The translations under genes and the position numbers were made by a program. The notes under the pieces are model-generated. The model had not been told where the DNA came from and ran no database searches. It worked only from the letters and a program-made list of their open reading frames with translations. Below are positions 28,060 to 43,255 of a DNA stretch of 45,337 nucleotides, piece by piece (the first letter of the stretch is position 1; each line of letters opens with the position of its first letter). This DNA comes from Corallococcus sp. bb12-1 (GTDB lineage Bacteria > Myxococcota > Myxococcia > Myxococcales > Myxococcaceae): positions 269,012-314,348 of the forward strand of contig NZ_JAPNJZ010000012.1 in the NCBI RefSeq assembly GCF_026626765.1. The letters run 5' to 3'.

Positions 28060-28223
28060 CGTCTGGAGCAGGCAGCCAGGCATGAAGCAGGGGCTTGCCA
28101 TCCCGTCCTCCGTGCGCGGTAAGCAGGCAGGGAGGCAGGCGACTTCTACGAGGAGGAAGCCAGTCAGGGGATGGAATGCCCAATCTCTTCCGAGCAGTCG
28201 TGGCGCACCTCGGAGGAGACGGC

Positions 28224-29285
28224 ATGGTTTTGCCCGGCAAGGGAATGAGCTGGAAGGAGTTCTTCAAGTCCCTCAAGGCCGAGTGGGCGCGGGACAACGT
28301 GGGCAATGTGGCGGGGGCGCTGACGTTCCAGGGCATCCTCGCGCTGTTCCCGTTCCTGCTGTTCCTCGTGTCGCTTGCGGGCGTGTTGATTGATCCGCAT
28401 CAGGCGCAGCAGCTGGTCCAGGAGCTGTCGCGCGTGGCGCCGCAGGAGGTGACGAAGATCCTGGGTGAGCGCCTGGAGGCGCTGGCGAGCAGCAATCCGG
28501 TGGGGCTGCTGACCATCGGTGGCGTGGGCGCCATCTGGGCGGCGTCGGGCGGCATCGTGGCGCTGATGGAGGCGCTCAACACGGTGTACGGCGTGGAGGA
28601 GAAGCGCCCGTTCTGGAAGAAGCGGGGCATCGCGCTCCTGACGACGTTGGGCACGGCGGTGACGGCGGTGTTGGCGGCCCTCGTCGCGGTCGCCACGCCG
28701 GCGGTGGCGAGCAGGCTGGGCGAGCCGCTGAGCACCGTCATCATGTGGCTGCGCCTGCCGGTGGCGGGGCTCCTGATGATGTGCCTGTGGGCGTACCTGT
28801 ACTACGCGCTGCCGGACGTGAAGCAGAAGTTCAAGTTCATCACGCCGGGCTCGGTGGTGGGCGTTCTCATCTGGGTGGCCGCGTCGTGGGCGTTCTCCAT
28901 GTACGTGGCGAACTTCGGCTCGTACGACGTGAACTACGGCGCCATCGGCGGCGTCATCGTGCTGCTCTTGTGGATGTGGATCTCCTGCCAGGTCATCCTG
29001 CTGGGCGCGGAGATCAACGGCATCCTGGAGCACAAGTCGCCGGACGGTAAGTCGCCGGGTCAGCGCGATCCGGATCAGGCTGGGCCGAACGTGACGAAGA
29101 CGGAAGCGGAGGAGCAGGGCGCGGACCTGCCCGGCGCCACCGACTTCCGTCCCAAGCCGGTCGCGCCACCGTACACCACGGCGCCAGTGCCCCTGAGCAA
29201 GACGCCCCTGGCGTCCGCGGTGAAGGTGGCCGCGGGCGTGGGCCTGGGTGTGTTCCTGATGCGCCGCAAATCTCCGGCGCGGTAG
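28224..29285 (+). CDS. YihY/BrkB (ribonuclease BN-like) family inner-membrane protein.
   Basis: The FLxxxxRDNVGNxAGALTFQGILALFPFLLF start is typical of YihY. Six TM helices. Strong RBS GGAGGAG 5 nt upstream of the ATG at 28224. Confidence 0.75.
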   Translation: MVLPGKGMSWKEFFKSLKAEWARDNVGNVAGALTFQGILALFPFLLFLVSLAGVLIDPHQAQQLVQELSRVAPQEVTKILGERLEALASSNPVGLLTIGGVGAIWAASGGIVALMEALNTVYGVEEKRPFWKKRGIALLTTLGTAVTAVLAALVAVATPAVASRLGEPLSTVIMWLRLPVAGLLMMCLWAYLYYALPDVKQKFKFITPGSVVGVLIWVAASWAFSMYVANFGSYDVNYGAIGGVIVLLLWMWISCQVILLGAEINGILEHKSPDGKSPGQRDPDQAGPNVTKTEAEEQGADLPGATDFRPKPVAPPYTTAPVPLSKTPLASAVKVAAGVGLGVFLMRRKSPAR

Positions 29286-29312
29286 GGCCTGGGCACGGTG
29301 TGGGGCGACGGC

Positions 29313-29340
29313 GGGCGGTCTTCCTCGCGGAAGGCCGCCC
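29313..29340. terminator. Hairpin in the convergent gap (yihY-like gene / P460-like gene). Candidate terminator.
   Basis: gggcggtcttcc-tcgc-ggaaggccgccc (12-bp stem with one mismatch), followed by gtggccgttt on the plus strand. Confidence 0.3.
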
Positions 29341-29349
29341 GTGGCCGTT

Positions 29350-29838: not shown

Positions 29839-29883
29839 TCCCTGCGTTACGCCCGTGCGCCCGGTGTGGTTACTGGGGGCTGC

Positions 29884-30516: not shown

Positions 30517-30564
30517 GAGGGCAACGGTGAAACCTAGCAGACCCGGGGCAAAGGACTTCAAGCC

Positions 30565-31737
30565 ATGCCCCCTCAGGGCCGCATGAGGGCTCCCCATGGC
30601 GCGGTACAATCGAGGCTCATGGACGCCGCACTGACCGAGCGCTGGCTTACGCCTGACGGCCTCCGCCGACGTGAACGGCTGGTGGCATTGGGACTCCGTG
30701 GGCCATGGCGCGAGGTCCTCGTCGGGTTTCCGGGCGTGGGCGCGTTGGATCCCGCGGTGGGAGACCTGCGGGGCATCGACCTGACGCAGGAGGAGTTACC
30801 CGGCGCGGACCTCGTCCGGGCCCGCCTTGATGGTGCTCGGCTGGATGACTGCGGCCTCATCGAGGCCCGGCTCGACCTGGCCACGCTGTCGGAGGCGTCG
30901 CTCACCTGGGCGCGTATGGACCGCGCCAGCCTGCTCGGGTGTGTGGCCTTGGGAGCGAGTTGGGACGATGCCTCGTTGGAGGGGGCGGTTCTCACGGCTT
31001 CCAACCTGACCCGGGGTTCCTTCCGCCGCACGCGACTCCGGGGAGCGCTGTTGACCGCGACGACGCTGCTGAAAGCGGACCTGCGTTGCGCGGACCTCCG
31101 GGGCACGGAGATCTCCTGCTGCGACATGGAGGAGGCACGTGTCGCGGGCGTCCGCACGGACCGTCCCCGGACCTATGCGCGGGAGACCTGGAACCAGGCC
31201 ACGATTCGCGCCCTTCTGGGGAGCGGATATCCCTCATTCCTGGATGCCATCCTGTTGTGGCCCGGGCCGATGTCGTTTCGGGGGCTCACCCAGGGGGCGG
31301 AGGTGCTGCGGAACGTGGAGGCAGGAGTGGAGGCAAGTCCTGGGGTGGATGCGGAGATCCTCGCTCTGTTCCAGGATGAGCCGTATCCCTTGCATTGGGT
31401 GGGCGCGGTGGCGATGCTGATTGGGGGCGCACGCAAGGAGACCCTGGATGCGCTGTGGTCGAGGCTCGACAAGGGCCGCGTGGCGCATCCACAACTCGTG
31501 GTGGTCGCGCTTCTCGTGGATCCAGCCTTCGAAGCGAAGGCCCGCACCCGGCTCGATGCGCCGAGCCGATTGGGTCCCGAGGTGCTCGCCAACCTTGCGT
31601 GGGCGCTCTCGCAGCGGACCGGCCATGCGGTCAATCCGAGCGCCACGACGAGAACCTGTCAGCGCTGGTTCGACAGCCTCCGAAAACAGATGGACCCGCG
31701 CATCCAGGCGCAATGGATTCCTTTGGCGGGGCAGTGA
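30565..31737 (+). CDS. Pentapeptide-repeat protein with a C-terminal domain of unknown function.
   Basis: Tandem A(D/N)LxX-type repeats (ADLVRARLDGARLDDCGLIEARLDLATLSEASLTWARMDRASLLGC...ADLRCADLRGTEI). Confidence 0.65.
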   Translation: MPPQGRMRAPHGAVQSRLMDAALTERWLTPDGLRRRERLVALGLRGPWREVLVGFPGVGALDPAVGDLRGIDLTQEELPGADLVRARLDGARLDDCGLIEARLDLATLSEASLTWARMDRASLLGCVALGASWDDASLEGAVLTASNLTRGSFRRTRLRGALLTATTLLKADLRCADLRGTEISCCDMEEARVAGVRTDRPRTYARETWNQATIRALLGSGYPSFLDAILLWPGPMSFRGLTQGAEVLRNVEAGVEASPGVDAEILALFQDEPYPLHWVGAVAMLIGGARKETLDALWSRLDKGRVAHPQLVVVALLVDPAFEAKARTRLDAPSRLGPEVLANLAWALSQRTGHAVNPSATTRTCQRWFDSLRKQMDPRIQAQWIPLAGQ

Positions 31738-31738
31738 C

Positions 31739-32563
31739 TCACTTGCTCCAACGCAGCAGTTTCGCGCGAGCCGTGTCGGACAGCTGGGTCACCACGAACT
31801 GTTCGAGCAGCGAGGGATCCGGCTCCTTGCGCACGGGCTCCACCATGAAGTCCCACGTCTCGAAGTCGTCCGCCTCCTGGAAGAGGATCAACCCCACGCC
31901 CATGCGCTGCGCTTCCGACGTGAGCCGCGCGATGTCCGTGTCGTCTGGGTTCTCGGGCGTTTCGAACAGGGCGAAGGCATGCGTGGCCGTCCTGGCGTGC
32001 GCGGCGGCCTCGAAGACCCCGGTGATGTTGAACTGCCAGCTCGGCTTGATTTCGAAGGTCCAGATGTCGAAGGTGCGACCGGGCCAGTGGGTGAAGGTCC
32101 GCATGCTGATGGCGGTGATGTCGGGGCGGGTCCACACGCCCCCCGTCTTCTTTCCCCCCTGGTTCGCGGTGATCTCGATGTGGAAGTCGTGCAGCCCGCG
32201 CTCCTTCGTCCACTTCTCGTGCAGCACTTCCAGGCATGGGGCGTAGAGGTCAACCTCCGCTCCCTCCTCGGGCTCGGGAGGAAGCTCCACGAGGCTGCCG
32301 CTGAAGGCATTCGTGTCAGAGGGTTTGATCTCCTTGACGATGTTGACGCTGCCGCCGCGCCCCCGGCCTCGGAGGATCTGTCCATCCTCGATGAGCTTCT
32401 CGCGCAGCCGCCAGTACTCTGATTCAGACCAACCCAATTCATTCATCAGGCTGGTGTTGCCGGAAGAGCCCCCGTTCTTGATCAAGACCTCGAGGAACTT
32501 CCGGCGCTGGGAGTCATCAACGGGGCGTCCTGCCATGGGAAGGTCTCCTTGCTTGACAGCCAT
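31739..32563 (-). CDS. Hypothetical protein with an N-terminal winged-helix-like region and a PD-(D/E)xK-like nuclease motif.
   Basis: RRKFLEVLIKNGGSSGNTSLMNELGWSESEYWRLREKLIEDGQILRGRG (wHTH-like). Then HDFHIEI...RPDITAI...FEIKP (D...PD...ExK arrangement). The ATG overlaps the stop of the upstream gene by 1 nt (TGATG). Confidence 0.5.
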   Translation of the reverse strand: MAVKQGDLPMAGRPVDDSQRRKFLEVLIKNGGSSGNTSLMNELGWSESEYWRLREKLIEDGQILRGRGRGGSVNIVKEIKPSDTNAFSGSLVELPPEPEEGAEVDLYAPCLEVLHEKWTKERGLHDFHIEITANQGGKKTGGVWTRPDITAISMRTFTHWPGRTFDIWTFEIKPSWQFNITGVFEAAAHARTATHAFALFETPENPDDTDIARLTSEAQRMGVGLILFQEADDFETWDFMVEPVRKEPDPSLLEQFVVTQLSDTARAKLLRWSK

Positions 32564-34125
32564 CAAGCCACAGCCAGGATGGATTTGCTTCGCTCCTCCT
32601 CAAGGAGCGCCAACGTCTTGCGGTACTCCGCTGCTTCCGCGAGCTGGGTCAGCTCGAACTCCCCGTGGTGCTTGCGCACGGTCGCGGCGATCTCCTCCAG
32701 GCTGACGCGGAAGAACTCTTTGCGCTCGTTGATGCGATTGACGCGCCGGTCCGTGAAGGCGCGGTGCAGTGCGTTCTCCAGCGCGGGGGCATCCGAGGTC
32801 CGGATGATGGCATGCACGTCAAACTCGAAGGGGACGGAGGCATCCCCCAGCTCGTCGATGCGGTCCTGTGGCACCAGCCTTCGCGTCATCCCCAGCTTGT
32901 AGACGCCCTCTCCGAAGGAGCCGATGTTGGAGATGACGTAGACGTGCCCCGTCCGCGTGAGCTGTGCCTGGGAGATGGCCCGTTGCTTCTCCATGTCCTC
33001 GGCCACCCGACGTTCCAACTCCGCGATGCGCTCCAGCATCCGCTGCTGCTCGGGCCCCTTGGCCTTCTCGTAGTCCAGCCGGGCCCGGGCCAGGGCGTCC
33101 GCATCGCGCTTTGCTTCACGCTCCGCTTCCAGCTTCGCCTTCTCCAACTCCCGCTGGGCGGTCTCTTCCTCGCGCATCTGCTCCCGGATGCGGCGCTGCT
33201 CGTCCCGCTCCTGCTGCACCTTCTCCGAGTACTCGTACGCCAGGAGCAGCTCATCCCGCTTCAGCTTCACGTACTTGCGCACGATGATGCACTGCTGGAT
33301 CTCCGTCAGGCTGTTGATGGCCGCCGCCGCCTTCTCCAGGCGCGTCTCCATGGCCTTCACGTTCTTGTACGTCACCTTCGCGATACAGGCGTCCGCCTCG
33401 CCATTGAAGGCGCGCAGCATCAGCTTTAGCGTCCGCTCCGTCTGCTTCCTGCCTTCCGCCTTGCTGCCGTTGACCTCCCACTCCAACGAACACGTCGCTG
33501 CCTGCTTGTCCTTCAACATCTGTTTCTGGGCTTCGCGGAGCGTCTCCAGCCGGTCCTCGTACTCCTTCACCGAGGACAGGGCATACACGGGCTTGTAGAA
33601 GCCGAAGGAGAGCAGGACGGCCTCCTCCTCCAGCTCCTTCAGCTCCGTTTTCAATCGGCCGATGCCCGATTCCAGCCCCGTGCGCTCCGTGTTCGCCTGG
33701 AGCCGCCGCGCCTCCGCCTCCGACATGGCCCGTTTCGCGGCCTCCGTCGTCCGGGTGGCTTCGTCGCGAAGGCGTGTCAGCTCCGCCTTGGCCCGCGTCT
33801 GTTCCGCGGCGACGGCCTGCTCGACGTCCGCCTTCGCCTTCGCGAGCTGGGTCTCCACCCGCTTCTGCTCCGCCGCGAGAGTGGTGTCCGCCTCACTCCG
33901 GGCCCGGGCAAGCTCCTCCTGGACGCGCTTCTTCTCCGACGCCATGGCGGCGTCCGCATCCGTGCGCGAGCGGGTCAATTCCTCCGCGACGCGGCGTCGC
34001 TCGGCTTCCAGGTCCAGGATGGGTTTGAAGCGCTCCTGGACCACCCGGAGCTGAACCCGGGTCCGGAACCACAGTCCTACGAAGAGCAGGGCCAGCGCTC
34101 CAAGCCCGATGGCAATGATTGTCAT
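32563..34125 (-). CDS. Membrane-anchored coiled-coil protein with a DUF4041 domain and a C-terminal T5orf172 (GIY-YIG-like/MUG113) domain.
   Basis: N-terminal TM helix MTIIAIGLGALALLFVGLWF. ~170 aa of heptad-rich E/R/A repeats. C-terminal GHVYVISNIGSFGEGVYKLGMTRRLVPQDRIDELGDASVPFEFDVHAIIRTSDAPALENALHRAF...ERKEFFRVSLEEI, characteristic of T5orf172. Confidence 0.7.
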   Translation of the reverse strand: MTIIAIGLGALALLFVGLWFRTRVQLRVVQERFKPILDLEAERRRVAEELTRSRTDADAAMASEKKRVQEELARARSEADTTLAAEQKRVETQLAKAKADVEQAVAAEQTRAKAELTRLRDEATRTTEAAKRAMSEAEARRLQANTERTGLESGIGRLKTELKELEEEAVLLSFGFYKPVYALSSVKEYEDRLETLREAQKQMLKDKQAATCSLEWEVNGSKAEGRKQTERTLKLMLRAFNGEADACIAKVTYKNVKAMETRLEKAAAAINSLTEIQQCIIVRKYVKLKRDELLLAYEYSEKVQQERDEQRRIREQMREEETAQRELEKAKLEAEREAKRDADALARARLDYEKAKGPEQQRMLERIAELERRVAEDMEKQRAISQAQLTRTGHVYVISNIGSFGEGVYKLGMTRRLVPQDRIDELGDASVPFEFDVHAIIRTSDAPALENALHRAFTDRRVNRINERKEFFRVSLEEIAATVRKHHGEFELTQLAEAAEYRKTLALLEEERSKSILAVA

Positions 34126-34158
34126 GGATGTCCCCCCACCGAAGCGGGAAAGTCTAAC

Positions 34159-37100
34159 TCAGGCACTCAGCGAACGCATCTGGCCCTCGGCGGGAGGGTC
34201 GTTGCGGACCACCTTGGGCCGCTCCGCCGTGTCCTCTTCGCGGAGCAGTGTGTCGATGCGCGCGACGATGCGCGCGACCTCTTCCGCCGGCGAGCGGAAC
34301 CAATCCGTGGACCAGATGCGATGCAGCCGCCACCCCAGCCCCGTCAACACCTGGTCTCTCAGCCGGTCGCGATCCCGGGCGGAGCGTGAGCTGTGATAGC
34401 GCTCTCCGTCACACTCCACCCCCAGGATGTAACGGCCGGGATGGCGGGGATGCCGGATGGCCAGATCGATGAAGTAGCCCGCGACGCCCACCTGCGGCAC
34501 GACTTCGTACTGGTGCGCCGCGAGCGCCTTCGCCACCGCCACCTCGAAATCCGAATCCGGAGGGCGTCCGCTTCCGACGCCGTGGGCCACGAGCGCACCC
34601 TGGGCCTCGAACAGGTAGCGCTGCAGGACGCGCATCCCCCGGGGGCTGCTCTCCTGCACCTTGAGGTCTGATGGCTCAAACGACGCGAACACCGTCAGCG
34701 CGGACCGTGCCCGCGTGAAGAGCACGTTCAAGCGCCGGTACCCGTCCGCCTGGTTGATGGGGCCGAAGTTCTGCCGGAAACGGCCGTCCCGATCCTTGCC
34801 GAACGTCACGGAGACGAAGATGGCGTCGCGCTCGTCGCCCTGGACGTTCTCCAGGTTCTTCACATCGAAGGGATTGGGCGTTTTCGCCCAGGACGCCAGG
34901 AAGGCCGCGAGTCTGGCGTCCTTCTTCTCTTCCGCCAGCACCAGCGTATCGATGAGCTCCCGCTGCTTCGAGTTCAGCGTGACGACCAGCAGGCTCTGCT
35001 CGGGTCGGGTGTGCGCGTGCTGCCGCACCGCCTCCACCACCGCGCGGGCCTCGGGCTCGTTGCGGTTGGACTCATAGAGTCCGTTCTCCACCCGCACGAA
35101 GCGGACCCCCAATCCTTCCATGTGCTGTCCGGGCGCGGGAAAGACAATGAGGTCTCCGTTGTAGAACTCCCTGTTGCTGAAGGAGATGAGCGCCGGGTGC
35201 CGGGAGCGGTAGTGCCAGCGCAGCATGCGCATGGGGAATCGTCGCGCGGCGGCCACCAGGATGCTCTCCGACTCATCCAGGAGGGACGGACCTCTTGCCT
35301 CCTCCGGGTCCGTGACTTCTTCACCCGTGTCTTCGTCATCCCGTTCGAGCTGCGCGAAGAAGCTCGTGGGCGGAAGCTGCTCCGGGTCTCCCACCACCAC
35401 CAACTGACTGCCGCGTGCGATGGCGCCCAGCGCGTCTTCCGGACGGAGCTGGCTGGCCTCATCCATCACCACCAGGTCGAAACGCAGGTGCCCGGGCGGC
35501 AGGTATTGGGACACGGACTGCGGACCCATCATGAAACAGGGCATCAGCGCCTGAAGCGCGCTCCCCGCGCGTTGCACCAGCTCCCGGATGGAGACGTGTC
35601 GCTGCTTCTTGCCCAGCTCATGCTGGATGAGCTGAACCTCCGTCAGGCCCGCCACCTTCTGCGAGTGCACGCCCTGCGGCACCGGTCGGCGGCTGAGCTG
35701 ATGTGCCAGGTTCGGTCCCTGCTGCCCGATGAGCTGTGCATCCAGTCGCGCGAAGTCCTCACGCTGCGCGGCATGCACGGCGCCCGTGAACTGATCGAGC
35801 TCCGGCTGTTCCCTCAAGACGGACTCGGCCAGGGACCGGAAGAAGACGGCGTCGAAAGCCGCGAGCAGCTTCGTCGCCAGCGCCGGCCGGGCGTCGATCC
35901 GCTCCAGGAACGCGGTGGTGGAGCGCAGGCGCGTTACCGCGTGCCGGTGTCGCTGGTACGCGGCCCAGGCGGGGAGGGTGCTCGCGCGCTCCAGTGCCCG
36001 GTGCAACCGCCGCATCGTGGCCGTGAGCGGTGCCTCGGAGGCCGCGTCCTCCCAGGTTCCGGGCTCCATGCGTCCCAGCTCCTGCGCCCGTACCGTCGCG
36101 TCGCGGTAGTCCCGCAGTCGGGCTTCCACGTCGCGGCTTCGCGCCACCAGGCCTGCATGGCGACGTGCCGTGTCCTCCCGGAGCAGCCAGTCCGCGAAGC
36201 CTTCGGGAAGAGGGGCCGCGAGCACGTCATCCACGTAGCGCGCGAGCGCCCGGGGGCCGGCCGTGAGCGTCTTCCTTCCCTGGGACTCCGCGCCCAGCAA
36301 CGCGGACGCCACCGTGTGGTCCTTCAGTCGCTCCGCTGCCTCGCACGCTTCGCGCACGGTGCGCACCTGGGCCTGGAACTGGACCAGGGACAGTGAAGGC
36401 GGCGCAGCCGCCCGGCGAGCCTGGTCCAGGACCTCTCCCAGGTGGACGCGGAGCGCTCCCAGGCTGGATTTCACCTGGGACGCGGGGTTGGTGTTCCACG
36501 AACTCTTCCGCAGGTGCATGCGCGTGGCGGCTTCCTGCACCGCGTCGCTCACGTTCCGGGCCTGGAGGTGGGCATCCCCCTGGACCGAGGCCTTGGCGAT
36601 CGCCTCGCGCCAGCGGTTCGCGGGCAGCTCCAGGGCCATGCGCGCCAGGGGCTCGACGCTGGCGCCCATGGGACGCAGCAGCGCTTCCACCTTCCGCCAG
36701 ACCTCCACCCAGGCGAGGAGCCGATCAAAGCGCGTCGCGGTCCCCTGGAAGCGCTCGCCCAACAGCTCTCGCAAGGACGCGTCCGCATGGAAACGCTCAC
36801 GGGCGGCGTGATGCGCCAGCAGATCGTTGTACCCGAGGATCAGCAAGGGCCGTGTCGGCCGCAGACCATGGGCCATGGCCTGGAAGTCGCGCCGTGCAAA
36901 GCGCCACCCCCGCGACAGCCACGGGATGAACGGCGCGGTCGACACGGCGACGGCGTGCGCCTTCAGCGTCTCCAGGCAGGGGACGAGTTCGGGCATGAAG
37001 CGGACGGCGAGGGCTCGCGACTGTTCATCCAGGTCGTCGCGGGTGCGCGCCGCGCTTCGCAGCAGCTCCTCCGCCGCGGGCGTCACCCAGCACGCATCGC

Positions 37101-39342
37101 GCCACTCCAGGACGCCGTCGTCCAGCTCCGCCATCGCGTCCACGACCCGCGCGAGCGTCTGGATCATCACGGGCGACAAAGGCCCTTCGAGCCCCAACAC
37201 GGGAGCGAGTCCTTCCGCGAACGCCAGTCCCTGATCCACCGCCGCCAGCGCGTGCTCCACCGCGTCGCGTGCCCGCACCACGGTGAGCAGCGGAGTGTCC
37301 GGGGTGAAGAGCCGCAGGCTGGTGTCCAGCACCGCCTCCGCGCCCTTCAGGGCCTCCACGGTCAGGTCCTCGCGGGAACGCCAACCGGCCTCCAGCCCCG
37401 CCCACTGCCGTTGCATCAACTCGACGGCATCCAGGAACGAGCGCAGGGCTTCGCGGTTCGCTGCCTCCAGGAGGGCGCACTGAAGGCCAGGACGTGGTGG
37501 GGTCGGGGGCTCGGGCAGCAGTCGCACCGCGCTCACGAGGGCGTCCGCCGCGAGGGCGCTGTTCCGTAAGGCCGTTCCCGTGAGCGGGGCCAGCGCCGCC
37601 AGGGACTGCTCCAGGCCCAGCGCGGCTTCCTTCCATGCGGTGGTCCGCTCGATGAGCGCCTGGCAATCCCCAGCACTCAGGCTGGGATTCCTGATTCCGG
37701 ACCAGGGATGTTCGGAGGGCAGGGGCGCGACGCGGAGGATGTCCTTGAACTGAGCCGCGAGTCCCCGGAGCGCCTCGTGCACCTCCTCCAGGGTCGAGGG
37801 AGAAACGCTCGCGGCCGCCTCGATGCGCACGTCCTTGAGCGCCGCGATGTCATCTCCCAGCTCCGTTTCGGCCCGGCCCACCCTCCAGAAGATGTCGTGC
37901 GGCGTCAGCCCCAGGCCTCCCTGGACCGAATGCAGTCGTTCGGTGTGCGCGCGCAGGATGCCCATGGCATGCGTGACCTGGGCGCCCAGGGAGCCTGTCG
38001 CGACCGGCGTGGGCCGTTGTTTCAGCCGTCTGCGCAGGTCCTCCATGAACTGCTGCTTCTGGGTCTTGTGGCTGTGCAGCTCCAGGCAGAAGTCGCCCAG
38101 CCCTGCCTGCTGGAGCCGTCGGGAGACGACCTCCAGGGCGGCCATCTTCTGGGTGACGAACAGCACCGTCTTGCCCGCGGCCAGCGCCGCGCCAATGAGG
38201 TTGGTGATGGTCTGGGACTTCCCCGTGCCCGGTGGGCCCTGGACCACCAGACTTTCGCCCCGCAGCACGTCCACCAGCACGCTGTGCTGGCTGCTGTCCG
38301 CGTCCGTGATGAGCGGAGGGATTTCCGGCGCGAGTGCCGGTGAGTCCAGGTCATAGACATCGCTCCGGCGCTCCGCGATGGCTGGTAAACGCCCGCTCGC
38401 GGACTCCTTCTCCTGTCTGGCACCCAGCAGGGTTCGGACCTGGGGGCTGGCCAGCAGGGGGCTCGCTTCGGGCCATCGACCCGGCTCCAGGTCCCGCCAC
38501 ATGAGCAGCCGTCCAAAGGACAGCAACGTCAGGGTGACCTGCCGCTCCAGTTTCCACCCAGGACGCAAGTCCGCCAGGAGCGTGCTCACCTTCGCGAAGT
38601 ACGCCTCCAGCCCTTCGTCCGCATCGAAGGGGGGCAGGGTGATGCCGAACTCCTGCCGCAACTTCTCCTGGAGCGTGAGGTTGAGTTCGATGGACTCTCC
38701 CTCGTTGTAGTCCACCTCGTAGGCGTGGACCTGCGTCCTCGCATCGGGTGCGTTGCGCCGGAGGCTGACAGGCATCAGCACCAGGGGCGCGCTGCGCGGT
38801 TTCTCCCGCGCGACATCCCCGGGCTCGTACCAGCGCAGGAATCCGAAGACGAGGTGGAGCAGGTTCGCTCCCGTCTCCTGGATGGCGGTCTGCGCGAGTC
38901 CCTGCAATTGACGCAGCTGGGACTCCAGCTCCTCCGGAAAGTAGAGCGTCTGGACGTGGCGGTCCTGGTGCTTGCGCGGACCGGCCGCGCTGTCCGTCGA
39001 GGCCAGAGGCAGTTCGAAGCGGGTGTCGATGCCCAGCCGTTCGGCCTCCTGGGTCGCCAGCCGTTGCCGGGACACGGGGGGCGCGATGGTCTCCATCGTG
39101 AACACGCCGGGGCGGGGCTCCTTCGCGGGAGCTTCGCGTTCGGGCTCAGGCACTGGCAGGAACGTGAGCGCGCGATGGTTGCTCAGTCGCTCGAAGATGA
39201 CGCCGGGGAGTTCATCCACCAGCCGCAGCGATGTCCTCGCGGTGTGCCGGAAGTGGAGGAGCCGGTTGGATGCACTCAGGTCCAGGAGCCGCGTGCGCTG
39301 CCGTTCAAGCTCCTTCAGCAGGACCGGATCTTGCGGAGTCAT
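34159..39342 (-). CDS. Large (1727 aa) DUF4011/Upf1-like SF1 helicase fused to DUF3320 and a C-terminal DUF559 (Vsr-like) endonuclease domain. Hhe-like defence helicase-nuclease.
   Basis: N-terminal LLDLSASNRLLHF (DUF4011-type). Walker A GPPGTGKSQT, motif II DLVVMDEASQL, VVVGDPEQLPP, motif VI GYRRLNVLFTRAR. C-terminus YILGVECDGERYHSSRSARDRDRLRDQVLTGLGWRLHRIWSTDWF (DUF559/Vsr fold). Strong RBS GGGGAGGGG. Confidence 0.8.
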   Translation of the reverse strand: MTPQDPVLLKELERQRTRLLDLSASNRLLHFRHTARTSLRLVDELPGVIFERLSNHRALTFLPVPEPEREAPAKEPRPGVFTMETIAPPVSRQRLATQEAERLGIDTRFELPLASTDSAAGPRKHQDRHVQTLYFPEELESQLRQLQGLAQTAIQETGANLLHLVFGFLRWYEPGDVAREKPRSAPLVLMPVSLRRNAPDARTQVHAYEVDYNEGESIELNLTLQEKLRQEFGITLPPFDADEGLEAYFAKVSTLLADLRPGWKLERQVTLTLLSFGRLLMWRDLEPGRWPEASPLLASPQVRTLLGARQEKESASGRLPAIAERRSDVYDLDSPALAPEIPPLITDADSSQHSVLVDVLRGESLVVQGPPGTGKSQTITNLIGAALAAGKTVLFVTQKMAALEVVSRRLQQAGLGDFCLELHSHKTQKQQFMEDLRRRLKQRPTPVATGSLGAQVTHAMGILRAHTERLHSVQGGLGLTPHDIFWRVGRAETELGDDIAALKDVRIEAAASVSPSTLEEVHEALRGLAAQFKDILRVAPLPSEHPWSGIRNPSLSAGDCQALIERTTAWKEAALGLEQSLAALAPLTGTALRNSALAADALVSAVRLLPEPPTPPRPGLQCALLEAANREALRSFLDAVELMQRQWAGLEAGWRSREDLTVEALKGAEAVLDTSLRLFTPDTPLLTVVRARDAVEHALAAVDQGLAFAEGLAPVLGLEGPLSPVMIQTLARVVDAMAELDDGVLEWRDACWVTPAAEELLRSAARTRDDLDEQSRALAVRFMPELVPCLETLKAHAVAVSTAPFIPWLSRGWRFARRDFQAMAHGLRPTRPLLILGYNDLLAHHAARERFHADASLRELLGERFQGTATRFDRLLAWVEVWRKVEALLRPMGASVEPLARMALELPANRWREAIAKASVQGDAHLQARNVSDAVQEAATRMHLRKSSWNTNPASQVKSSLGALRVHLGEVLDQARRAAAPPSLSLVQFQAQVRTVREACEAAERLKDHTVASALLGAESQGRKTLTAGPRALARYVDDVLAAPLPEGFADWLLREDTARRHAGLVARSRDVEARLRDYRDATVRAQELGRMEPGTWEDAASEAPLTATMRRLHRALERASTLPAWAAYQRHRHAVTRLRSTTAFLERIDARPALATKLLAAFDAVFFRSLAESVLREQPELDQFTGAVHAAQREDFARLDAQLIGQQGPNLAHQLSRRPVPQGVHSQKVAGLTEVQLIQHELGKKQRHVSIRELVQRAGSALQALMPCFMMGPQSVSQYLPPGHLRFDLVVMDEASQLRPEDALGAIARGSQLVVVGDPEQLPPTSFFAQLERDDEDTGEEVTDPEEARGPSLLDESESILVAAARRFPMRMLRWHYRSRHPALISFSNREFYNGDLIVFPAPGQHMEGLGVRFVRVENGLYESNRNEPEARAVVEAVRQHAHTRPEQSLLVVTLNSKQRELIDTLVLAEEKKDARLAAFLASWAKTPNPFDVKNLENVQGDERDAIFVSVTFGKDRDGRFRQNFGPINQADGYRRLNVLFTRARSALTVFASFEPSDLKVQESSPRGMRVLQRYLFEAQGALVAHGVGSGRPPDSDFEVAVAKALAAHQYEVVPQVGVAGYFIDLAIRHPRHPGRYILGVECDGERYHSSRSARDRDRLRDQVLTGLGWRLHRIWSTDWFRSPAEEVARIVARIDTLLREEDTAERPKVVRNDPPAEGQMRSLSA

Positions 39343-39443
39343 CGGTGGGTGCCCCTCCCCGGGTCGTCACGCGAAGGGCGACCTGGCACTCCGGGTTCTG
39401 ACGCATCCGGCGCGGCGGGGGCATCCCCCGTGAGGGGTATGGA

Positions 39444-39467
39444 CACGCCACGGAATTCAGCGTGGCG
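39444..39467. promoter_or_regulatory. Perfect 8-bp inverted repeat (with a gaattcag loop) in the 143-nt gap upstream of the helicase-nuclease gene. Candidate operator or terminator of the preceding small ORF.
   Basis: acgccacg-gaattcag-cgtggcgt. Confidence 0.3.
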
Positions 39468-39485
39468 TCGTCCGGGGCGGAGGAC

Positions 39486-39950
39486 TCAATCGCAGTTGTC
39501 GAACACCAGGATGCCTGGACCGTATGGGGTCAGCACGGGGACCCACGCCTCGGTGACTTCATCCAGGCGCTCCCGGTCCAGAGCCAGATGGAGCCTTTCG
39601 TCCGAGTTTTCATGAAGTTGTGTGCGCCACATCGGAACGCGGCTGACGAGTGCGGCCAGGTGCTCGAAACGCCAGGCACTCCAGTCCTCACGGACGTAGG
39701 GGTTGCCGCCGAACTCCTTCGCGAAGAAGGCGATGAGCGCCTTCTCCACGTCGAACAATTCGTCGACTTCGGGATCCGGGCTCGTATCGGTTGAATGAAG
39801 CAGCACGAGGAAGCCCTCCGCCGTTCGCTCACTGTTCCGGAGCCCGTCGCACTGGTGCCCATACACGACGCCCGTAGGGGCCTGAACGATGACGGCGAGT
39901 CCAAACGGCCGGCTGCCATCCGGGTTCAAGAAGACATAGTGGGGCGTCAT
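39486..39950 (-). CDS. Hypothetical protein (154 aa), first gene of the candidate defence cluster.
   Basis: ORF with RBS GAGGAGAGAG upstream of the ATG. Codon usage resembles that of its neighbours. No recognisable domain. Confidence 0.45.
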   Translation of the reverse strand: MTPHYVFLNPDGSRPFGLAVIVQAPTGVVYGHQCDGLRNSERTAEGFLVLLHSTDTSPDPEVDELFDVEKALIAFFAKEFGGNPYVREDWSAWRFEHLAALVSRVPMWRTQLHENSDERLHLALDRERLDEVTEAWVPVLTPYGPGILVFDNCD

Positions 39951-39987
39951 GGCTCTCTCCTCGTAGCACCTCCGAACTCACGAAATT

Positions 39988-40025
39988 CGCCGCCTCGCTT
40001 CCGGAAGCTCCGGAGGCGGGCGGCG
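39988..40025 (-). terminator. Imperfect GC-rich hairpin downstream of the ABC-F gene. It includes the palindrome cttccggaag. Weak terminator candidate.
   Basis: cgccgcctcgcttccggaagctccggaggcgggcggcg. Only a short U-run (AAUUUCG) follows on the minus strand. Confidence 0.25.
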
Positions 40026-40049
40026 ATGGGAACTCCGCTTGCGCGTGGC

Positions 40050-41648
40050 CTACCGGCGCTTCATGGCCGCGTCCGCGTGCTTCTCGCGGAACTCGGCGTA
40101 GGGGCCGTTGAAGTCGAGCACTTCCTTGCCCGCCTCCATGCTCCAGATGCGCGTCGCGACCTCGGAGATGAGCTCCTGGTCGTGCGTGACGACGATGACC
40201 GTGCCCTCGAACTTCTGGAGGCCTTCGGCCAGCGCCGCGATGGACTCCAGGTCCAGGTGGTTCGTCGGCTCATCGAGGATGAGCATGTTGTCCTGGGTAA
40301 TCATCAGCTTCGACAGGAGCACGCGCACCGTCTCACCACCGGAGAGCGTGTCCGTGTTCTTCATCCGCTCTTCACCGGAGAACAGCATCCGACCCAGCAC
40401 GCCGGAGATCTCCTCGTTCGTCAGCTTCTCGCTGATCTCCCGCAGGTAGCCGAAGCAGGTCGTGCCCTTGTAGATGACGCCGTGGTGGTCCTGCGGCAGG
40501 TAGCCCACCGACGCCTGGTGGCCCCAGGTGATGGTGCCCGCGTCCGGCTCCGTCTTTCCGGCCAGCATCTTCACCAGCGTGGACTTGCCCACGGCGTTGC
40601 GGCCGATGACGCAGATGCGCTCGCCCTTGCAGACGAGCCCCGTGAACGGCTTGATGACCTGCACGCCGTCGTAGGACTTCTTCAGGCCCTCGAACATCAG
40701 CGTCTGCCGGCCGCTGACCACCTTCTGATCAAACCGGATGAAGGGCCGCGCGATGTTCGAGCGCTTCAGGTCCTCCGTCTTCAGCTTGTCGATCTGCTTG
40801 ATGCGGCTCTGCACCTGCGAGGCGCGCGTGCCGGCGTGGAAGCGCGCCACGAAGTCCTGCAACTGGAGGATCTTCTTCTTCTTCTCTTCCGTCTCCGACT
40901 CCACCCGGGTCCGCAGCTGCGACTTCTGCCGGACCATGTCGTCGTAACCACCCGTGTACTGGATGATGGTCTCGTAATCGATGTCCGCGATGTGCGTGCA
41001 GATGGAGTTCAGGAAGTGCCGGTCGTGGCTGATGGTGATCAGCACGCCCTCGTACTGGTGGAGGAAGGTCTCCAGCCAGCGGATGGAATCGATGTCCAGG
41101 TTGTTCGTGGGCTCGTCGAGCAGCAGTCCGTCCGGCTTGCCGAACAGCGCCTGCGCGAGCAACACGCGCAGCTTCAGGCCGCCCGTCAGCTGGCGCATGG
41201 GCTCTTCGTGGAACGCCACGTCGATGCCAAGGCCCGCCAGCAGCGTGGCCGCGTCGCTCTCCGCGGAGTAGCCGTCCTCTTCCGCGATGACGCCTTCCAG
41301 CTCACCCAGCCGGTTACCGTCCTCCTCGGTGATGTCGGACTTGGCGAGCAGCTTGTTCTTCTCGTCCATCGCCGCCCACAGGTGGCGGTTGCCCATCAGC
41401 ACCACGTCCAGGACGCGGTCGTTCTCATAGCGGAAGTGGTCCTGGCGCAGGATGCCCAGCTTGCGGGGGCGGATGATGTCGCCCATGTCCTGCTCCTCGT
41501 CACCGGCGAGGATCTTCATGAAGGTGGACTTGCCGGCCCCGTTTGGACCGGTCAGGCCGTAGCGACGGCCCGGCGAGAAGGTGACGTTGACCTCCTCGAA
41601 AAGCTTCTTGGGCCCATAGGCCTTGGAGACGTTGATGACGTTGAACAT
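40050..41648 (-). CDS. ABC-F family ATPase (EttA/YbiT-like translation factor).
   Basis: Two ABC cassettes without TM domains: Walker A GPNGAGKST and GRNAVGKST; signatures LTGGLKLRVLLAQAL and LSGGETVRVLL; an inter-domain linker with a charged KKKK segment. Confidence 0.85.
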   Translation of the reverse strand: MFNVINVSKAYGPKKLFEEVNVTFSPGRRYGLTGPNGAGKSTFMKILAGDEEQDMGDIIRPRKLGILRQDHFRYENDRVLDVVLMGNRHLWAAMDEKNKLLAKSDITEEDGNRLGELEGVIAEEDGYSAESDAATLLAGLGIDVAFHEEPMRQLTGGLKLRVLLAQALFGKPDGLLLDEPTNNLDIDSIRWLETFLHQYEGVLITISHDRHFLNSICTHIADIDYETIIQYTGGYDDMVRQKSQLRTRVESETEEKKKKILQLQDFVARFHAGTRASQVQSRIKQIDKLKTEDLKRSNIARPFIRFDQKVVSGRQTLMFEGLKKSYDGVQVIKPFTGLVCKGERICVIGRNAVGKSTLVKMLAGKTEPDAGTITWGHQASVGYLPQDHHGVIYKGTTCFGYLREISEKLTNEEISGVLGRMLFSGEERMKNTDTLSGGETVRVLLSKLMITQDNMLILDEPTNHLDLESIAALAEGLQKFEGTVIVVTHDQELISEVATRIWSMEAGKEVLDFNGPYAEFREKHADAAMKRR

Positions 41649-41824
41649 GGCGGCGGCTTGTAGCGGAAATGGCGCGTCCACCAAAGACGCGCGGTGAATC
41701 GGAGCCCGGCGGCGTGCCGGAGGACCCAATGTAACCGCCGACACGCCCCGGAAATGCCGGCTTCCCGTCCCGTTTCCAGCCCGCTGGGTCCCGGTGACGG
41801 CCCCCAGCCCCCCGGTTCAGGTAG

Positions 41825-43108
<1,284 letters not shown>

Positions 43109-43255
43109 AACCCGGCGGGTTCGCGGGCGCGTGGTTCGTCGCCCGCCCACCGGCCGGGATGTCTCGCATGGGGCAGGGATGCGCGGTGGGGTGGGACCTG
43201 ACGGGTTAGCCTGCGGGACCCCGGGCGCAGAAGGTGGCCCGGCTCCCACCGTCGC

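What the first reader, a model, noticed from the sequence alone, without database searches (positions are those of the whole stretch)
34159..39342. 1727-aa DUF4011 - Upf1-like SF1 helicase - DUF3320 - DUF559/Vsr endonuclease fusion (Hhe-like)
The sequence shows an N-terminal LLDLSASNRLLHF block, then Walker A GPPGTGKSQT, DEASQL, GDPEQLPP and FTRAR motifs. A C-terminal domain has the GW-R-W pattern of very-short-patch-repair-like endonucleases. This whole architecture matches the single-protein Hhe-type defence helicase-nucleases reported in large-scale defence-island screens. Here it is unusually long and sits in an operon-like arrangement with other nuclease-domain proteins.
Basis: partly seen in the sequence, partly recalled or inferred. 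Interest (0 to 1): 0.7.

Follow-up and report, generated by a model that had tools for sequence, protein, structure and literature searches.

The report
Hhe-family defence helicase-nuclease in Corallococcus
This is a real 1,727-residue gene that fuses a DNA/RNA-unwinding motor to a DNA-cutting domain; it is a diverged member of the already known Hhe family of single-protein anti-phage defences and sits in a variable defence island, so it is a sound but fairly ordinary finding.

Summary
The ORF at 34159-39342 (-) is real and all quoted motifs are present. Its domains are DUF4011, a split Upf1-like SF1 helicase with a ~730-residue insert, and a C-terminal MTES_1575/DUF559 (Vsr-like) nuclease. 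A confident model of the nuclease matches DUF559 and Vsr-like nuclease structures.

Two details are wrong. No DUF3320 is detectable, and 1,727 aa is typical for the family (about 1,650-1,900 aa), not unusually long.

The protein aligns end to end with NCBI's Hhe model but scores below its cut-off (1397 vs 2000 bits). It is 35% identical to E. coli Hhe and lacks Hhe's C-terminal tail. Its best PADLOC match is the untested candidate PDC-S37.

The housekeeping alternative is refuted. Genomes with an identical flanking ABC-F protein carry Hhe-like plus SNIPE, SNIPE alone, or unrelated genes. One relative has an empty site and carries the pair elsewhere.

The downstream genes are a SNIPE/PD-lambda-1 membrane nuclease homologue and an uncharacterised wHTH-PD-(D/E)xK protein. 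In every member examined of the clade at least 58% identical to this protein, SNIPE follows the helicase, in three unrelated genomic contexts. That hints at, but does not show, cooperation.

Verdict: new member of a known kind, with modest interest.

The parts
34159..39342 (-). Hhe-like gene: 1727-aa DUF4011 / split Upf1-like SF1 helicase / Vsr-like nuclease fusion. ATG at 39342 with GGAGG about 10 nt upstream; stop codon at 34159-34161.
   Evidence: ORF and translation; Pfam, PADLOC and NCBIfam matches; 92% identical 1727-aa orthologue in Corallococcus praedator.
38308..39342 (-). N-terminal module, residues 1-345, containing DUF4011 (residues 18-228 = 38659-39291). Proposed substrate- or trigger-recognition or regulatory domain; fold not assignable.
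38044..38295 (-). First part of helicase RecA1 domain, residues ~350-433, with Walker A GPPGTGKSQT (369-378 = 38209-38238).
   Evidence: AAA_11/AAA_19/AAA_30 hits; G369-T378 invariant in 34 homologues; PDB profile hit to IGHMBP2.
35803..37992 (-). About 730-residue insert (451-1180) splitting RecA1. It has no known domain, gives weak matches to helical-bundle proteins, and is the fastest-evolving part. Proposed sensor or autoinhibitory region.
   Evidence: No Pfam hit at E<=10. Identity is 58-66% among Myxococcaceae homologues, against 85-98% in the catalytic modules; in distant homologues it is 14-27%. Only designed helical bundle / coiled-coil hits in the PDB.
35362..35484 (-). Second part of RecA1, residues 1287-1327: motif II DEASQL and motif III GDPEQLPP.
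   Evidence: AAA_11 hit 1287-1327; D1294, E1295, G1318, D1319, Q1322 invariant; PDB hits to Sen1, Dna2 and Upf1 over this stretch.
34684..35238 (-). Helicase RecA2 domain (AAA_12, residues 1369-1553) with QGDERD and LNVLFTRAR motifs.
   Evidence: Pfam AAA_12 E 1.9e-15; invariant Q1501-R1505 and R1536-A1545.
34255..34548 (-). C-terminal MTES_1575 / DUF559 (Vsr-like PD-(D/E)xK) nuclease domain, residues 1599-1696. Candidate catalytic residues are D1626, E1643, D1645 and H1650.
   Evidence: Pfam E 1.8e-37. AF2 model pLDDT 87.7 with alpha-beta-beta-beta-alpha-beta core. Foldseek matches 3hrl (DUF559 protein, TMt 0.76), RAP domains, and 3r3p I-Bth0305I (TMt 0.80). The ECDG motif is shared with E. 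coli and Klebsiella Hhe.
32563..34125 (-). Downstream neighbour: 520-aa SNIPE / PD-Lambda-1 homologue with an N-terminal hydrophobic helix, DUF4041 and a T5orf172/GIY-YIG nuclease. It starts 33 nt after the helicase stop and has its own GGGGGGA ribosome-binding site.
   Evidence: Pfam DUF4041 1.4e-19 and T5orf172 1.5e-17; PADLOC PD-Lambda-1 5.5e-150; sequence; SNIPE mechanism in PMC13190303.
31739..32536 (-). Third gene on the same strand: 265-aa winged-helix plus PD-(D/E)xK-motif protein of an undescribed family, 26 nt after the SNIPE stop.
   Evidence: 100% match to a Corallococcus sp. bb12-1 hypothetical protein; 129 homologues, none of the listed ones with a Pfam domain in the part homologous to this protein. 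Invariant E121, WTRPD139, FE162-x-K164, E176. No PADLOC, PHROG or NCBIfam hit. The same trio occurs in metagenome contig L085, and the gene occurs alone elsewhere.
39486..39950 (-). Upstream 154-aa DUF6210 ORF, 143 nt before the helicase start. Absent from all related loci examined.
   Evidence: Pfam DUF6210 4.1e-18; no tblastn match in related loci.
40050..41648 (-). Core flank: ABC-F family ATPase (532 aa), left boundary of the variable island.
   Evidence: Pfam and NCBIfam; 94-99% identical in Corallococcus and 85-88% in Myxococcus and other Myxococcaceae.
28095..29285 (+). Core flank: BrkB-family membrane protein, right boundary of the variable island.
   Evidence: Pfam Virul_fac_BrkB 4.4e-68. 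It lies directly next to ABC-F in Myxococcaceae bacterium GXIMD 01537, the empty site.

Best explanation
The gene encodes a diverged member of the Hhe family of single-polypeptide anti-phage helicase-nucleases. It is carried as accessory cargo in a chromosomal defence hotspot of Corallococcus, between the core ABC-F ATPase and BrkB genes.

Proposed mechanism:
1. A Upf1-like SF1 motor uses ATP to translocate on single-stranded nucleic acid. By analogy with Upf1, IGHMBP2, Sen1 and Dna2, the direction would be 5'-to-3'. The motor residues are Walker A K375, motif II D1294/E1295, motif III GDPEQLPP and motif VI R1544.
2. The motor delivers the covalently attached Vsr/DUF559-type PD-(D/E)xK nuclease (D1626, E1643, D1645, H1650), which cuts invading phage DNA or its replication intermediates.
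3. The N-terminal DUF4011 module and the fast-evolving ~730-residue insert decide when and on what the enzyme acts.

Shown here: the domains and intact, conserved catalytic motifs; the nuclease fold; end-to-end homology to Hhe; the accessory, patchy and mobile distribution.

Inferred: anti-phage function in this clade, translocation polarity, DNA as the target, and the sensor role of the insert.
For: - Architecture and motifs.
- Homology to Hhe: end-to-end alignment to NCBIfam Hhe_antiphage at 1396.8 bits; PADLOC Hhe 937 bits and PDC-S37 1222 bits; 35% identity to E. coli Hhe over 1661 aligned positions, with the same Pfam architecture.
- Helicase core: the nearest solved relatives are IGHMBP2, Sen1, Dna2 and Upf1.
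- Nuclease fold: model pLDDT 87.7, matching DUF559 protein 3hrl and the Vsr-like homing endonuclease 3r3p.
- Accessory status: five genomes with the same ABC-F protein carry three different cargos (Hhe-like + SNIPE + SIR2_2; SNIPE + SIR2_2 without Hhe-like; neither). Myxococcus sp. SDU36 lacks both genes. GXIMD 01537 has ABC-F directly next to BrkB and carries its Hhe-like|SNIPE pair at another locus.
- Divergence: against the syntenic C. coralloides locus, Hhe-like is 68% identical while the ABC-F and TGT flanks are 94.5%. The non-syntenic GXIMD copy is closer, at 75%.
- Where the divergence lies: it is concentrated in the insert.
- Neighbours: a known defence gene (SNIPE) and, in relatives, SIR2_2.
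- Literature: E. coli hhe protects against lambda, T3, T7 and PhiV-1, and a Vsr-domain point mutant abolishes this (10.1101/2022.06.16.496414). T7 DNA-metabolism genes behave as triggers (10.1101/2024.10.10.617714).
- hhe is present in only 288 of 5426 complete E. coli genomes.
Against: - No member of this clade (window protein and its 40-92% relatives) has been tested. All score below NCBI's curated Hhe and ProA cut-offs.
- The best PADLOC model, PDC-S37, is only a candidate, and no paper in the library mentions it.
- The protein lacks the ~110-130-residue tail that follows the nuclease in E. coli and Klebsiella Hhe.
- Some DUF4011 helicases are vertically conserved. One is a core gene in every P. 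aeruginosa isolate (PMC10250203), and five Hymenobacter species share synteny around theirs. So family membership alone does not prove a defence role.
- GC3 of the gene (0.86) is close to the host's (0.89-0.95). It is therefore long resident, and no integrase or boundary repeats were found.
- Upf1-like motors and the related RAP domains also act on RNA, so the substrate is not established.
Confidence: 0.78

Rival explanations
1. Hhe-like and the downstream SNIPE homologue (possibly with the third, wHTH-PD-(D/E)xK gene) form one cooperating cassette, not independent neighbours. For example, the membrane-anchored SNIPE nuclease could cut entering DNA and create ends on which the helicase-nuclease loads and degrades processively.
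For: - The genes share a strand with 33-nt and 26-nt gaps and no terminator-like site between them.
- SNIPE immediately follows the helicase in every examined member of the clade at least 58% identical to the window protein: window, L001/L002, L003, L004, L085, L091/L092, L098.
- These loci span three unrelated genomic contexts: the ABC-F/BrkB hotspot, a cytochrome/GerE context, and a PAAR-toxin/NorB context.
- A 40%-identical Myxococcaceae homologue (L009) also has an adjacent SNIPE, in convergent orientation.
Against: - L094 keeps SNIPE + SIR2_2 at the same site with no trace of Hhe-like.
- No SNIPE lies next to the homologue in any of the 78 non-Myxococcaceae loci among the 80 fetched from other phyla and archaea, nor in Myxococcaceae MAG L097. 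No partner gene is conserved family-wide.
- E. coli SNIPE and E. coli Hhe each work as single genes.
- Co-transfer of adjacent independent systems is common in defence islands (general knowledge).
Confidence: 0.15
2. It is a housekeeping DNA repair or replication helicase-nuclease (Dna2-, RecD- or AddAB-like), inherited vertically in Myxococcota.
For: - It lies at the same chromosomal position in several Corallococcus species.
- Its codon composition is host-like.
- The helicase core resembles Dna2.
- Other DUF4011 genes are core in P. aeruginosa and syntenic in Hymenobacter.
Against: - Presence/absence polymorphism occurs among genomes with an identical flanking ABC-F protein.
- It is absent from the site in Myxococcus sp. 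SDU36, and GXIMD 01537 has an empty site.
- It is 68% identical where the flanks are 94.5%.
- RecD and RecD2 models score 25 and 21 bits against cut-offs of 310 and 500.
- It is embedded among defence genes.
Confidence: 0.04
3. It is a homologue of Hhe with a different biological target, acting on RNA (Upf1/Sen1-like) or on plasmids and other mobile elements, not on phage DNA.
For: - The nearest solved helicase relatives are RNA or RNA/DNA helicases.
- The nuclease domain also matches RNA-associated RAP domains.
- It scores below the Hhe equivalog cut-off and lacks Hhe's C-terminal tail.
- Bona fide Hhe genes are common on plasmids (495 plasmid records with a match).
Against: - The acidic residues of the Vsr/DUF559 DNA-nuclease signature are conserved (D1626 and D1645 invariant; E1643 and H1650 in at least 90% of sequences).
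- The closest compact structural matches are DNA endonucleases.
- The gene context is anti-phage.
Confidence: 0.05

Closest known systems
Hhe (HheA), the DUF4011 helicase + Vsr-like nuclease single-gene anti-phage system. Attribution to Gao et al. 2020 is as cited in 10.1101/2022.06.16.496414; I could not read Gao et al. Models: NCBIfam NF042953, PADLOC PDLC02194.
   Same: Same order of Pfam domains as E. coli Hhe WP_032200272: DUF4011, split AAA_11, AAA_12, MTES_1575. Collinear with the Hhe HMM over residues 12-1706. Shared helicase motifs and the ECDG nuclease motif. Accessory, patchy distribution.
   Different: Only 35% identical to E. coli Hhe. Scores 1396.8 bits against a 2000-bit equivalog cut-off, whereas a Pseudomonas protein scores 2383.9. 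Lacks the ~110-130-aa tail after the nuclease and about 80 N-terminal residues. In its clade it is always followed by SNIPE. Untested experimentally.
PDC-S37 (PADLOC-DB v2 'phage defence candidate', single gene; PDLC05009)
   Same: It is the highest-scoring PADLOC model for this protein (1222 bits) and for its 36-42%-identical relatives (1127-1276 bits).
   Different: The model is 1550 positions long and its best stretch covers only the C-terminal ~720 residues of the protein. The model also scores a bona fide Hhe at 1264 bits, so it does not discriminate cleanly. No description or test of PDC-S37 was found in the literature library.
ProA anti-phage protein (NCBIfam NF058533)
   Same: Homologous over the helicase C-terminal half and the nuclease (best stretch residues 989-1712, 1097.6 bits).
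   Different: Below the 1500-bit cut-off, with weaker and only partial alignment. I found no paper describing ProA.
Upf1-like SF1B helicases and helicase-nucleases (IGHMBP2, Sen1, Upf1, Dna2)
   Same: They are the nearest solved structures for both halves of the helicase core. Dna2 is also a helicase-nuclease fusion.
   Different: Similarity is restricted to short motif regions (E 1e-6 to 1e-10). The nuclease is a C-terminal Vsr/DUF559 type, not the Dna2 type. The DUF4011 module and the 730-aa insert are absent from those proteins. Its distribution is accessory, not essential.
SNIPE / PD-lambda-1 (for the downstream neighbour)
   Same: N-terminal hydrophobic helix, DUF4041 and T5orf172/GIY-YIG nuclease; PADLOC PD-Lambda-1 at E 5.5e-150. 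The domain organisation is as described in PMC13190303.
   Different: It is a myxobacterial homologue with a long coiled-coil-like N-terminal region. It is fixed downstream of an Hhe-like gene in this clade, an arrangement the SNIPE paper does not mention ('helicase' and 'Hhe' occur 0 times).

Membership tests
Hhe (NF042953 / PADLOC Hhe) | N-terminal DUF4011 domain | tested here: met
   PF13195 E 2.8e-34, residues 18-228.
Hhe (NF042953 / PADLOC Hhe) | Upf1-like SF1 helicase core (AAA_11 + AAA_12) split by a large insert, with intact ATPase motifs | tested here: met
   Walker A, motif II, III, V and VI residues invariant in 34 homologues; same split in E. coli Hhe.
Hhe (NF042953 / PADLOC Hhe) | C-terminal Vsr-like (MTES_1575/DUF559) nuclease with conserved acidic residues | tested here: met
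   PF18741 E 1.8e-37; fold confirmed; ECDG motif aligned with E. coli and Klebsiella Hhe. The published inactivating E1731A mutant probably maps to this Glu, but the clone's numbering could not be checked: in WP_032200272 the Glu is E1727.
Hhe (NF042953 / PADLOC Hhe) | Score at or above NCBI's curated equivalog cut-off (2000 bits) | tested here: not met
   1396.8 bits. A Pseudomonas homologue reaches 2383.9, while the window protein's 36-42% relatives reach 1190-1552.
Hhe (NF042953 / PADLOC Hhe) | C-terminal tail of ~110-130 aa after the nuclease, as in E. coli and Klebsiella Hhe | tested here: not met
   Only 31 residues follow MTES_1575, and the alignment shows the tail is missing.
Hhe (NF042953 / PADLOC Hhe) | Works as a single gene, with no conserved partner | tested here: inconclusive
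   No partner is conserved across the 80 loci fetched from diverse phyla. In the clade at least 58% identical to the window protein, however, SNIPE always follows.
Hhe (NF042953 / PADLOC Hhe) | Protects against phage; helicase and nuclease residues required | not testable with these tools
   Known only for E. coli hhe.
PDC-S37 (PADLOC candidate) | Best-scoring PADLOC HMM | tested here: met
   1222 bits against 937 for Hhe. PADLOC's own per-model thresholds and coverage rules were not available.
ProA (NF058533) | Score at or above the curated cut-off (1500 bits) | tested here: not met
   1097.6 bits, partial alignment.
DUF3320-containing DUF4011 helicases | PF11784 DUF3320 domain C-terminal to the nuclease | tested here: not met
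   No hit at E<=10. E. coli Hhe also gives no hit at E<=0.001. Some distant homologues carry a longer tail.
Housekeeping RecD / RecD2 / Dna2-type helicases | Curated family score, and core, syntenic inheritance | tested here: not met
   recD scores 24.7 bits against a cut-off of 310, and RecD2 scores 21.3 against 500. Presence/absence polymorphism and an empty site are seen.
Defence-island cargo (operational definition) | Variable presence between conserved flanks; neighbours are defence genes; faster divergence than the flanks | tested here: met

The most novel reading that the evidence does not exclude
In Myxococcaceae the Hhe-like helicase-nuclease and the membrane nuclease SNIPE have become a mobile two-gene cassette that acts cooperatively. 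SNIPE would cut DNA as it enters and so generate the ends or single-stranded regions that the Hhe-like motor-nuclease needs in order to load and destroy the genome. The fast-evolving 730-residue insert and the orphan-fold DUF4011 module would provide recognition. This would be a first example of two 'single-gene' systems fused into a fixed operon with division of labour, and it would give a handle on the still unknown activation mechanism of Hhe.
Probability: 0.15. Interest if true: 0.6.

Novelty: new member of a known kind. Interest (0 to 1): 0.3.

Why it matters
Hhe is a validated anti-phage system, but none of the papers I could read establishes its mechanism. This locus extends the family to a diverged clade with several useful properties:
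- It is shorter and lacks the C-terminal tail.
- It is below the annotation cut-offs, so NCBI's pipeline names it only 'DUF4011 domain-containing protein'.
- It occurs in predatory myxobacteria, whose phage defences are little studied.

The locus also defines a compact chromosomal hotspot (ABC-F | cargo | BrkB) with at least four alternative cargos and a natural empty site. That is a convenient place to mine for new systems. Examples are the wHTH-PD-(D/E)xK gene, the SIR2_2 + C2-like pair, and the radical-SAM + AAA_21 set.

The strict Hhe-like-then-SNIPE linkage suggests a simple experiment on cooperation between defence systems. None of this changes what kind of thing the gene is.

Tried and rejected
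1. DUF3320: the C-terminal 176 aa and the 830-aa middle region were scanned separately at E<=10 and gave no hit. Rejected.
3. The insert: there are no Pfam hits, and the PDB profile search hits only designed helical bundles and coiled coils, which is compositional similarity. The full-length protein exceeds the 1200-aa limit.
4. A conserved partner gene across the family: all-against-all clustering of ORFs within 6 kb in 80 loci found only genus-level synteny (Hymenobacter) and generic ABC ATPases.
5. A weak match of the 265-aa protein's wHTH just upstream of the Pseudomonas Hhe genes (E 1e-5, 60 aa) was not pursued. It may be the 'small hypothetical gene' noted in PMC10250203.
6. Island boundaries: no tRNA at the island, no integrase or transposase, no flanking direct repeats, and no promoter- or terminator-like sites of note.
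7. Exact-sequence look-up of the window protein found nothing. The source was inferred from a 100% match of the 265-aa protein to Corallococcus sp. bb12-1.
8. Literature: nothing was found on PDC-S37 or ProA. The id I guessed for Gao et al. 2020 was not held, so what Hhe does is quoted second-hand.
9. Mapping of the published E1731A mutant: in the E. coli allele fetched, residue 1731 is Ala and the motif Glu is E1727. The equivalence to window E1643 is therefore probable, not proven.
10. The ORFs 39795-41663(+) and 41552-43669(-) are antisense artefacts of the ABC-F and TGT genes.
Full report

Yes, for the gene and its motifs. A single ORF runs from 39342 to 34159 on the minus strand and encodes 1727 aa. 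A GGAGG lies about 10 nt upstream of the ATG.

Pfam gives the following domains:
- DUF4011, residues 18-228, E 2.8e-34.
- AAA_11 helicase domain, split into residues ~350-433 and 1287-1327.
- AAA_12, residues 1369-1553.
- REase_MTES_1575, residues 1599-1696, E 1.8e-37, with DUF559 as a weaker overlapping hit.

Two details of the observation fail.
- DUF3320 is not detectable. Scanning the C-terminal 176 residues or the 830-residue middle region alone at E<=10 gives nothing. Only 31 residues follow the nuclease domain.
- The protein is not unusually long. Its homologues are 1660-1900 aa. A profile search with the N-terminal module against 1.84 billion representative proteins finds 8914 representatives (3027 at E<=1e-30). 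The full-length ones are mostly 1650-1900 aa. E. coli Hhe is 1911 aa.

**2. Anatomy**

Alignment of 34 homologues (92-36% identity) shows the catalytic residues of the helicase motifs are invariant:
- Walker A: G369-T378, including K375.
- Motif II: D1294, E1295, A1296, S1297, Q1298.
- Motif III: G1318, D1319, Q1322, L1323, P1325.
- The QGDER motif: residues 1501-1505.
- The RRLNVL-TRA motif: R1536-L1541 and T1543-A1545.

The nearest solved structures by sequence are IGHMBP2, Sen1, Dna2 and Upf1, so this is a Upf1-like SF1B motor.

The RecA1 domain is interrupted by a ~730-residue insert (451-1180). The insert has no family match and resembles only designed helical bundles and coiled coils. 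It is the fastest-evolving part:
- 58-66% identity among Myxococcaceae homologues, against 85-98% for the motor and nuclease.
- 14-27% identity in distant homologues, against 57-76%.

The C-terminal 143 residues give a confident AlphaFold2 model (pLDDT 87.7) with an alpha-beta-beta-beta-alpha-beta core. Its best PDB matches are the DUF559 'endonuclease-like' protein 3hrl (target TM 0.76), RAP domains, and the homing endonuclease I-Bth0305I catalytic domain 3r3p (target TM 0.80). From my own knowledge, 3r3p is Vsr-like. D1626 and D1645 are invariant, and E1643 and H1650 are conserved in at least 90% of sequences.

**3. What family is it?**

NCBIfam's Hhe_antiphage equivalog model aligns end to end (residues 12-1706 to model positions 2-1690 of 1797). 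The score is 1396.8 bits, below the 2000-bit cut-off. ProA scores 1097.6 against a cut-off of 1500.

PADLOC's best model is the candidate PDC-S37 at 1222 bits, ahead of Hhe at 937 bits.

The same pattern holds for its 36-42%-identical relatives from metagenomes, Anaeromyxobacter and Bryobacterales. A Pseudomonas protein, in contrast, passes the Hhe cut-off with 2383.9 bits.

Proteins named Hhe by NCBI's pipeline on Vibrio and Klebsiella plasmids are 36-44% identical over 61-86% of the query. E. coli Hhe is 35% identical over 1661 aligned positions. It has the same Pfam architecture, also without DUF3320, but carries a ~110-130-residue tail after the nuclease that the window protein lacks.

I therefore file it as a diverged member of the Hhe family: homologous and collinear, with the same catalytic equipment. 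It is not an 'equivalog' of the tested protein. No paper in the library mentions PDC-S37 or describes ProA.

**4. Housekeeping gene or defence cargo?**

The window comes from a Corallococcus; a 100% match of a neighbouring protein points to Corallococcus sp. bb12-1.

The gene lies between a core ABC-F ATPase (40050-41648) and a BrkB-family gene (28095-29285). Identity of the window's genes to three related loci:

| Gene | C. praedator (same site) | C. coralloides (same site) | GXIMD 01537 (different chromosomal site) |
|---|---|---|---|
| ABC-F | 98.6% | 94.5% | n/a |
| TGT | 99.7% | 94.5% | n/a |
| Hhe-like | 92.4% | 67.9% | 74.8% |
| SNIPE | 95.1% | 83.6% | 80.1% |

The GXIMD 01537 copy lies at an unrelated chromosomal site, yet it is closer than the syntenic C. 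coralloides copy. That genome's own ABC-F and BrkB genes are directly adjacent, which is a natural empty site.

Most tellingly, five assemblies that encode the identical ABC-F protein carry three different cargos:
- Hhe-like | SNIPE | SIR2_2 | 221-aa protein (L091, L092).
- SNIPE | SIR2_2 | 221-aa protein, with no trace of Hhe-like (L094; checked by tblastn).
- An unrelated set with a radical-SAM protein and an AAA_21 ATPase (L090, L093).

Myxococcus sp. SDU36 has yet another gene at the site.

The window's own island differs again. It has an extra DUF6210 ORF upstream (39486-39950) and a 265-aa gene in place of SIR2_2.

Family-wide, homologues occur in many bacterial phyla and in archaea. They are found on 495 plasmid records and in only 288 of 5426 complete E. 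coli genomes. This is the signature of accessory defence cargo in a hotspot, not of a repair gene.

Caveats:
- Codon composition is host-like (GC3 0.86 against 0.89-0.95), and no mobility genes or boundary repeats are present.
- Some DUF4011 genes elsewhere are vertically conserved. One is core in P. aeruginosa (PMC10250203), and Hymenobacter species share synteny.

**5. The neighbours**

- *SNIPE homologue.* Thirty-three nt downstream, with its own Shine-Dalgarno sequence, is a 520-aa homologue of SNIPE/PD-lambda-1. It has an N-terminal hydrophobic helix, DUF4041 and a T5orf172/GIY-YIG nuclease (PADLOC E 5.5e-150). [quoted passage not shown]
- *265-aa protein.* Twenty-six nt further on is a 265-aa protein of an undescribed family: 129 homologues, with no Pfam, NCBIfam, PADLOC or PHROG match. 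It has a weak winged-helix N-terminus. Invariant residues E121, WTRPD139, FE162-x-K164 and E176 form a textbook PD-(D/E)xK signature. It accompanies Hhe-like|SNIPE in one metagenome contig, but stands alone in Myxococcus fulvus and Archangium violaceum.

So 'operon-like with other nuclease-domain proteins' is correct as a description.

Is it one system? In every examined member of the clade at least 58% identical to the window protein, SNIPE follows the helicase on the same strand, in three unrelated genomic contexts. A 40%-identical Myxococcaceae homologue also has a convergent SNIPE next to it.

Against an obligate partnership:
- SNIPE persists without Hhe-like in L094.
- None of the 78 non-Myxococcaceae loci among the 80 fetched, nor Myxococcaceae MAG L097, has SNIPE nearby.
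- No partner gene is conserved family-wide.

I rate true cooperation at about 0.15.

**6. Mechanism (committed, with its status)**

*Shown:* an intact ATPase/translocase core; an intact Vsr/DUF559-type nuclease; covalent fusion of the two; an accessory and mobile distribution.

*Known for the family, from E. coli hhe:*
- It protects against lambda, T3, T7 and PhiV-1.
- A Vsr-domain Glu-to-Ala mutant abolishes protection.
- It does not restrict T4.
- Several genes of the T7 DNA-metabolism cluster, and Bas63 g40, behave as triggers, which suggests it senses an activity and not one particular protein.

*Inferred:* the enzyme is held inactive by the DUF4011 module and/or the large helical insert. 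It is released or recruited by phage replication or recombination intermediates, or by host-takeover functions. It then translocates 5'-to-3' on single-stranded DNA and cuts it. The rapid divergence of the insert fits a recognition surface in an arms race.

Confidence that this is a defence helicase-nuclease of the Hhe family: about 0.78.

**7. Novelty and verdict**

It is a new, diverged member of a known kind, already captured by existing HMMs. It would not surprise a specialist.

Points of modest added value:
- The tail-less clade that falls below the annotation cut-offs.
- The compact ABC-F/BrkB hotspot with an empty-site reference.
- The fixed Hhe-like-then-SNIPE cassette.
- The orphan DUF4011 fold.
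- The undescribed wHTH-PD-(D/E)xK family next door.

Interest: 0.3.

Noticed in passing
window 31739-32536 (-): A 265-aa protein of an undescribed family with 129 homologues in Myxococcota, Bryobacteraceae, Methyloversatilis and metagenomes. None of the listed homologues has a Pfam domain in the part homologous to this protein, and there is no NCBIfam, PADLOC or PHROG match. It has a weak winged-helix N-terminus plus invariant E121, WTRPD139, FE162xK164 and E176, a PD-(D/E)xK nuclease signature. It occurs both next to Hhe-like|SNIPE and alone. Possible stand-alone defence or addiction nuclease.
   Followed up: partly
window 39486-39950 (-): A 154-aa DUF6210 ORF (E 4.1e-18) lies between the core ABC-F gene and the Hhe-like gene. 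It is absent from all related Corallococcus and Myxococcaceae loci examined, where that gap is only ~180 bp. Function unknown.
   Followed up: partly
window 28095-41648; loci L088-L094, L001, L003: The interval between ABC-F and BrkB is a variable hotspot with at least four cargo types in Corallococcus and Myxococcus. These are Hhe-like+SNIPE+SIR2_2+C2-like 220-aa protein; SNIPE+SIR2_2 only; radical-SAM + AAA_21/methyltransferase ATPase + kinase (with an IS66 in L093); and a CHB_HEX protein. GXIMD 01537 has an empty site. The SIR2_2 protein and its 220-aa partner have no NCBIfam match.
   Followed up: partly
[not shown]
   Followed up: yes
L012 and L013 (Pseudomonas), about 100-285 bp upstream of their Hhe genes: The winged-helix N-terminus of the window's 265-aa protein matches a short ORF just upstream of bona fide Pseudomonas Hhe genes (36% over 60 aa, E 1e-5). 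It may be the 'conserved small hypothetical gene' next to the core DUF4011 gene of P. aeruginosa hotspot cDHS1 (PMC10250203). Possible regulator associated with Hhe genes.
   Followed up: no
window 43256-44446 (+): A 396-aa UvrC N-terminal-half / Cho-like protein (weak Pfam GIY-YIG and UVR hits; strong NCBIfam matches to UvrC and to the C-terminal part of DEDD exonuclease fusion proteins). It is conserved as a flank gene in Corallococcus at 88-94% identity. It is a nuclease-domain gene near the island but belongs to the core flank, not to the operon.
   Followed up: partly
window 5744-27517: A surface-polysaccharide cluster: Wzt-type ABC transporter ATPase, several glycosyltransferases including a 1235-aa methyltransferase-GT fusion, a DUF2142 membrane protein, and rhamnose-biosynthesis genes (RmlD- and RmlA-like). 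A tRNA-Gly(GCC) lies at 5744-5818. It sits next to the defence hotspot.
   Followed up: no
window 29884-30609 (-) and L001 18611-19273: A C2-domain protein (241 aa) has a 40-45%-identical paralogue that sits directly after SIR2_2 in the C. praedator, C. coralloides and C. exiguus islands. The C2-like protein may be a partner of the SIR2_2 gene.
   Followed up: no
L096 (E. coli 203740 chromosome): E. coli hhe (1911 aa) lies next to a DUF262 gene and a cluster of IS66/IS3 elements. hhe occurs in 288 of 5426 complete E. coli genomes, almost always on the chromosome.
   Followed up: partly
window 39795-41663 (+) and 41552-43669 (-): These long ORFs (622 and 705 aa) with no family match are antisense artefacts of the ABC-F and TGT genes in this 70% G+C genome.
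   Followed up: yes
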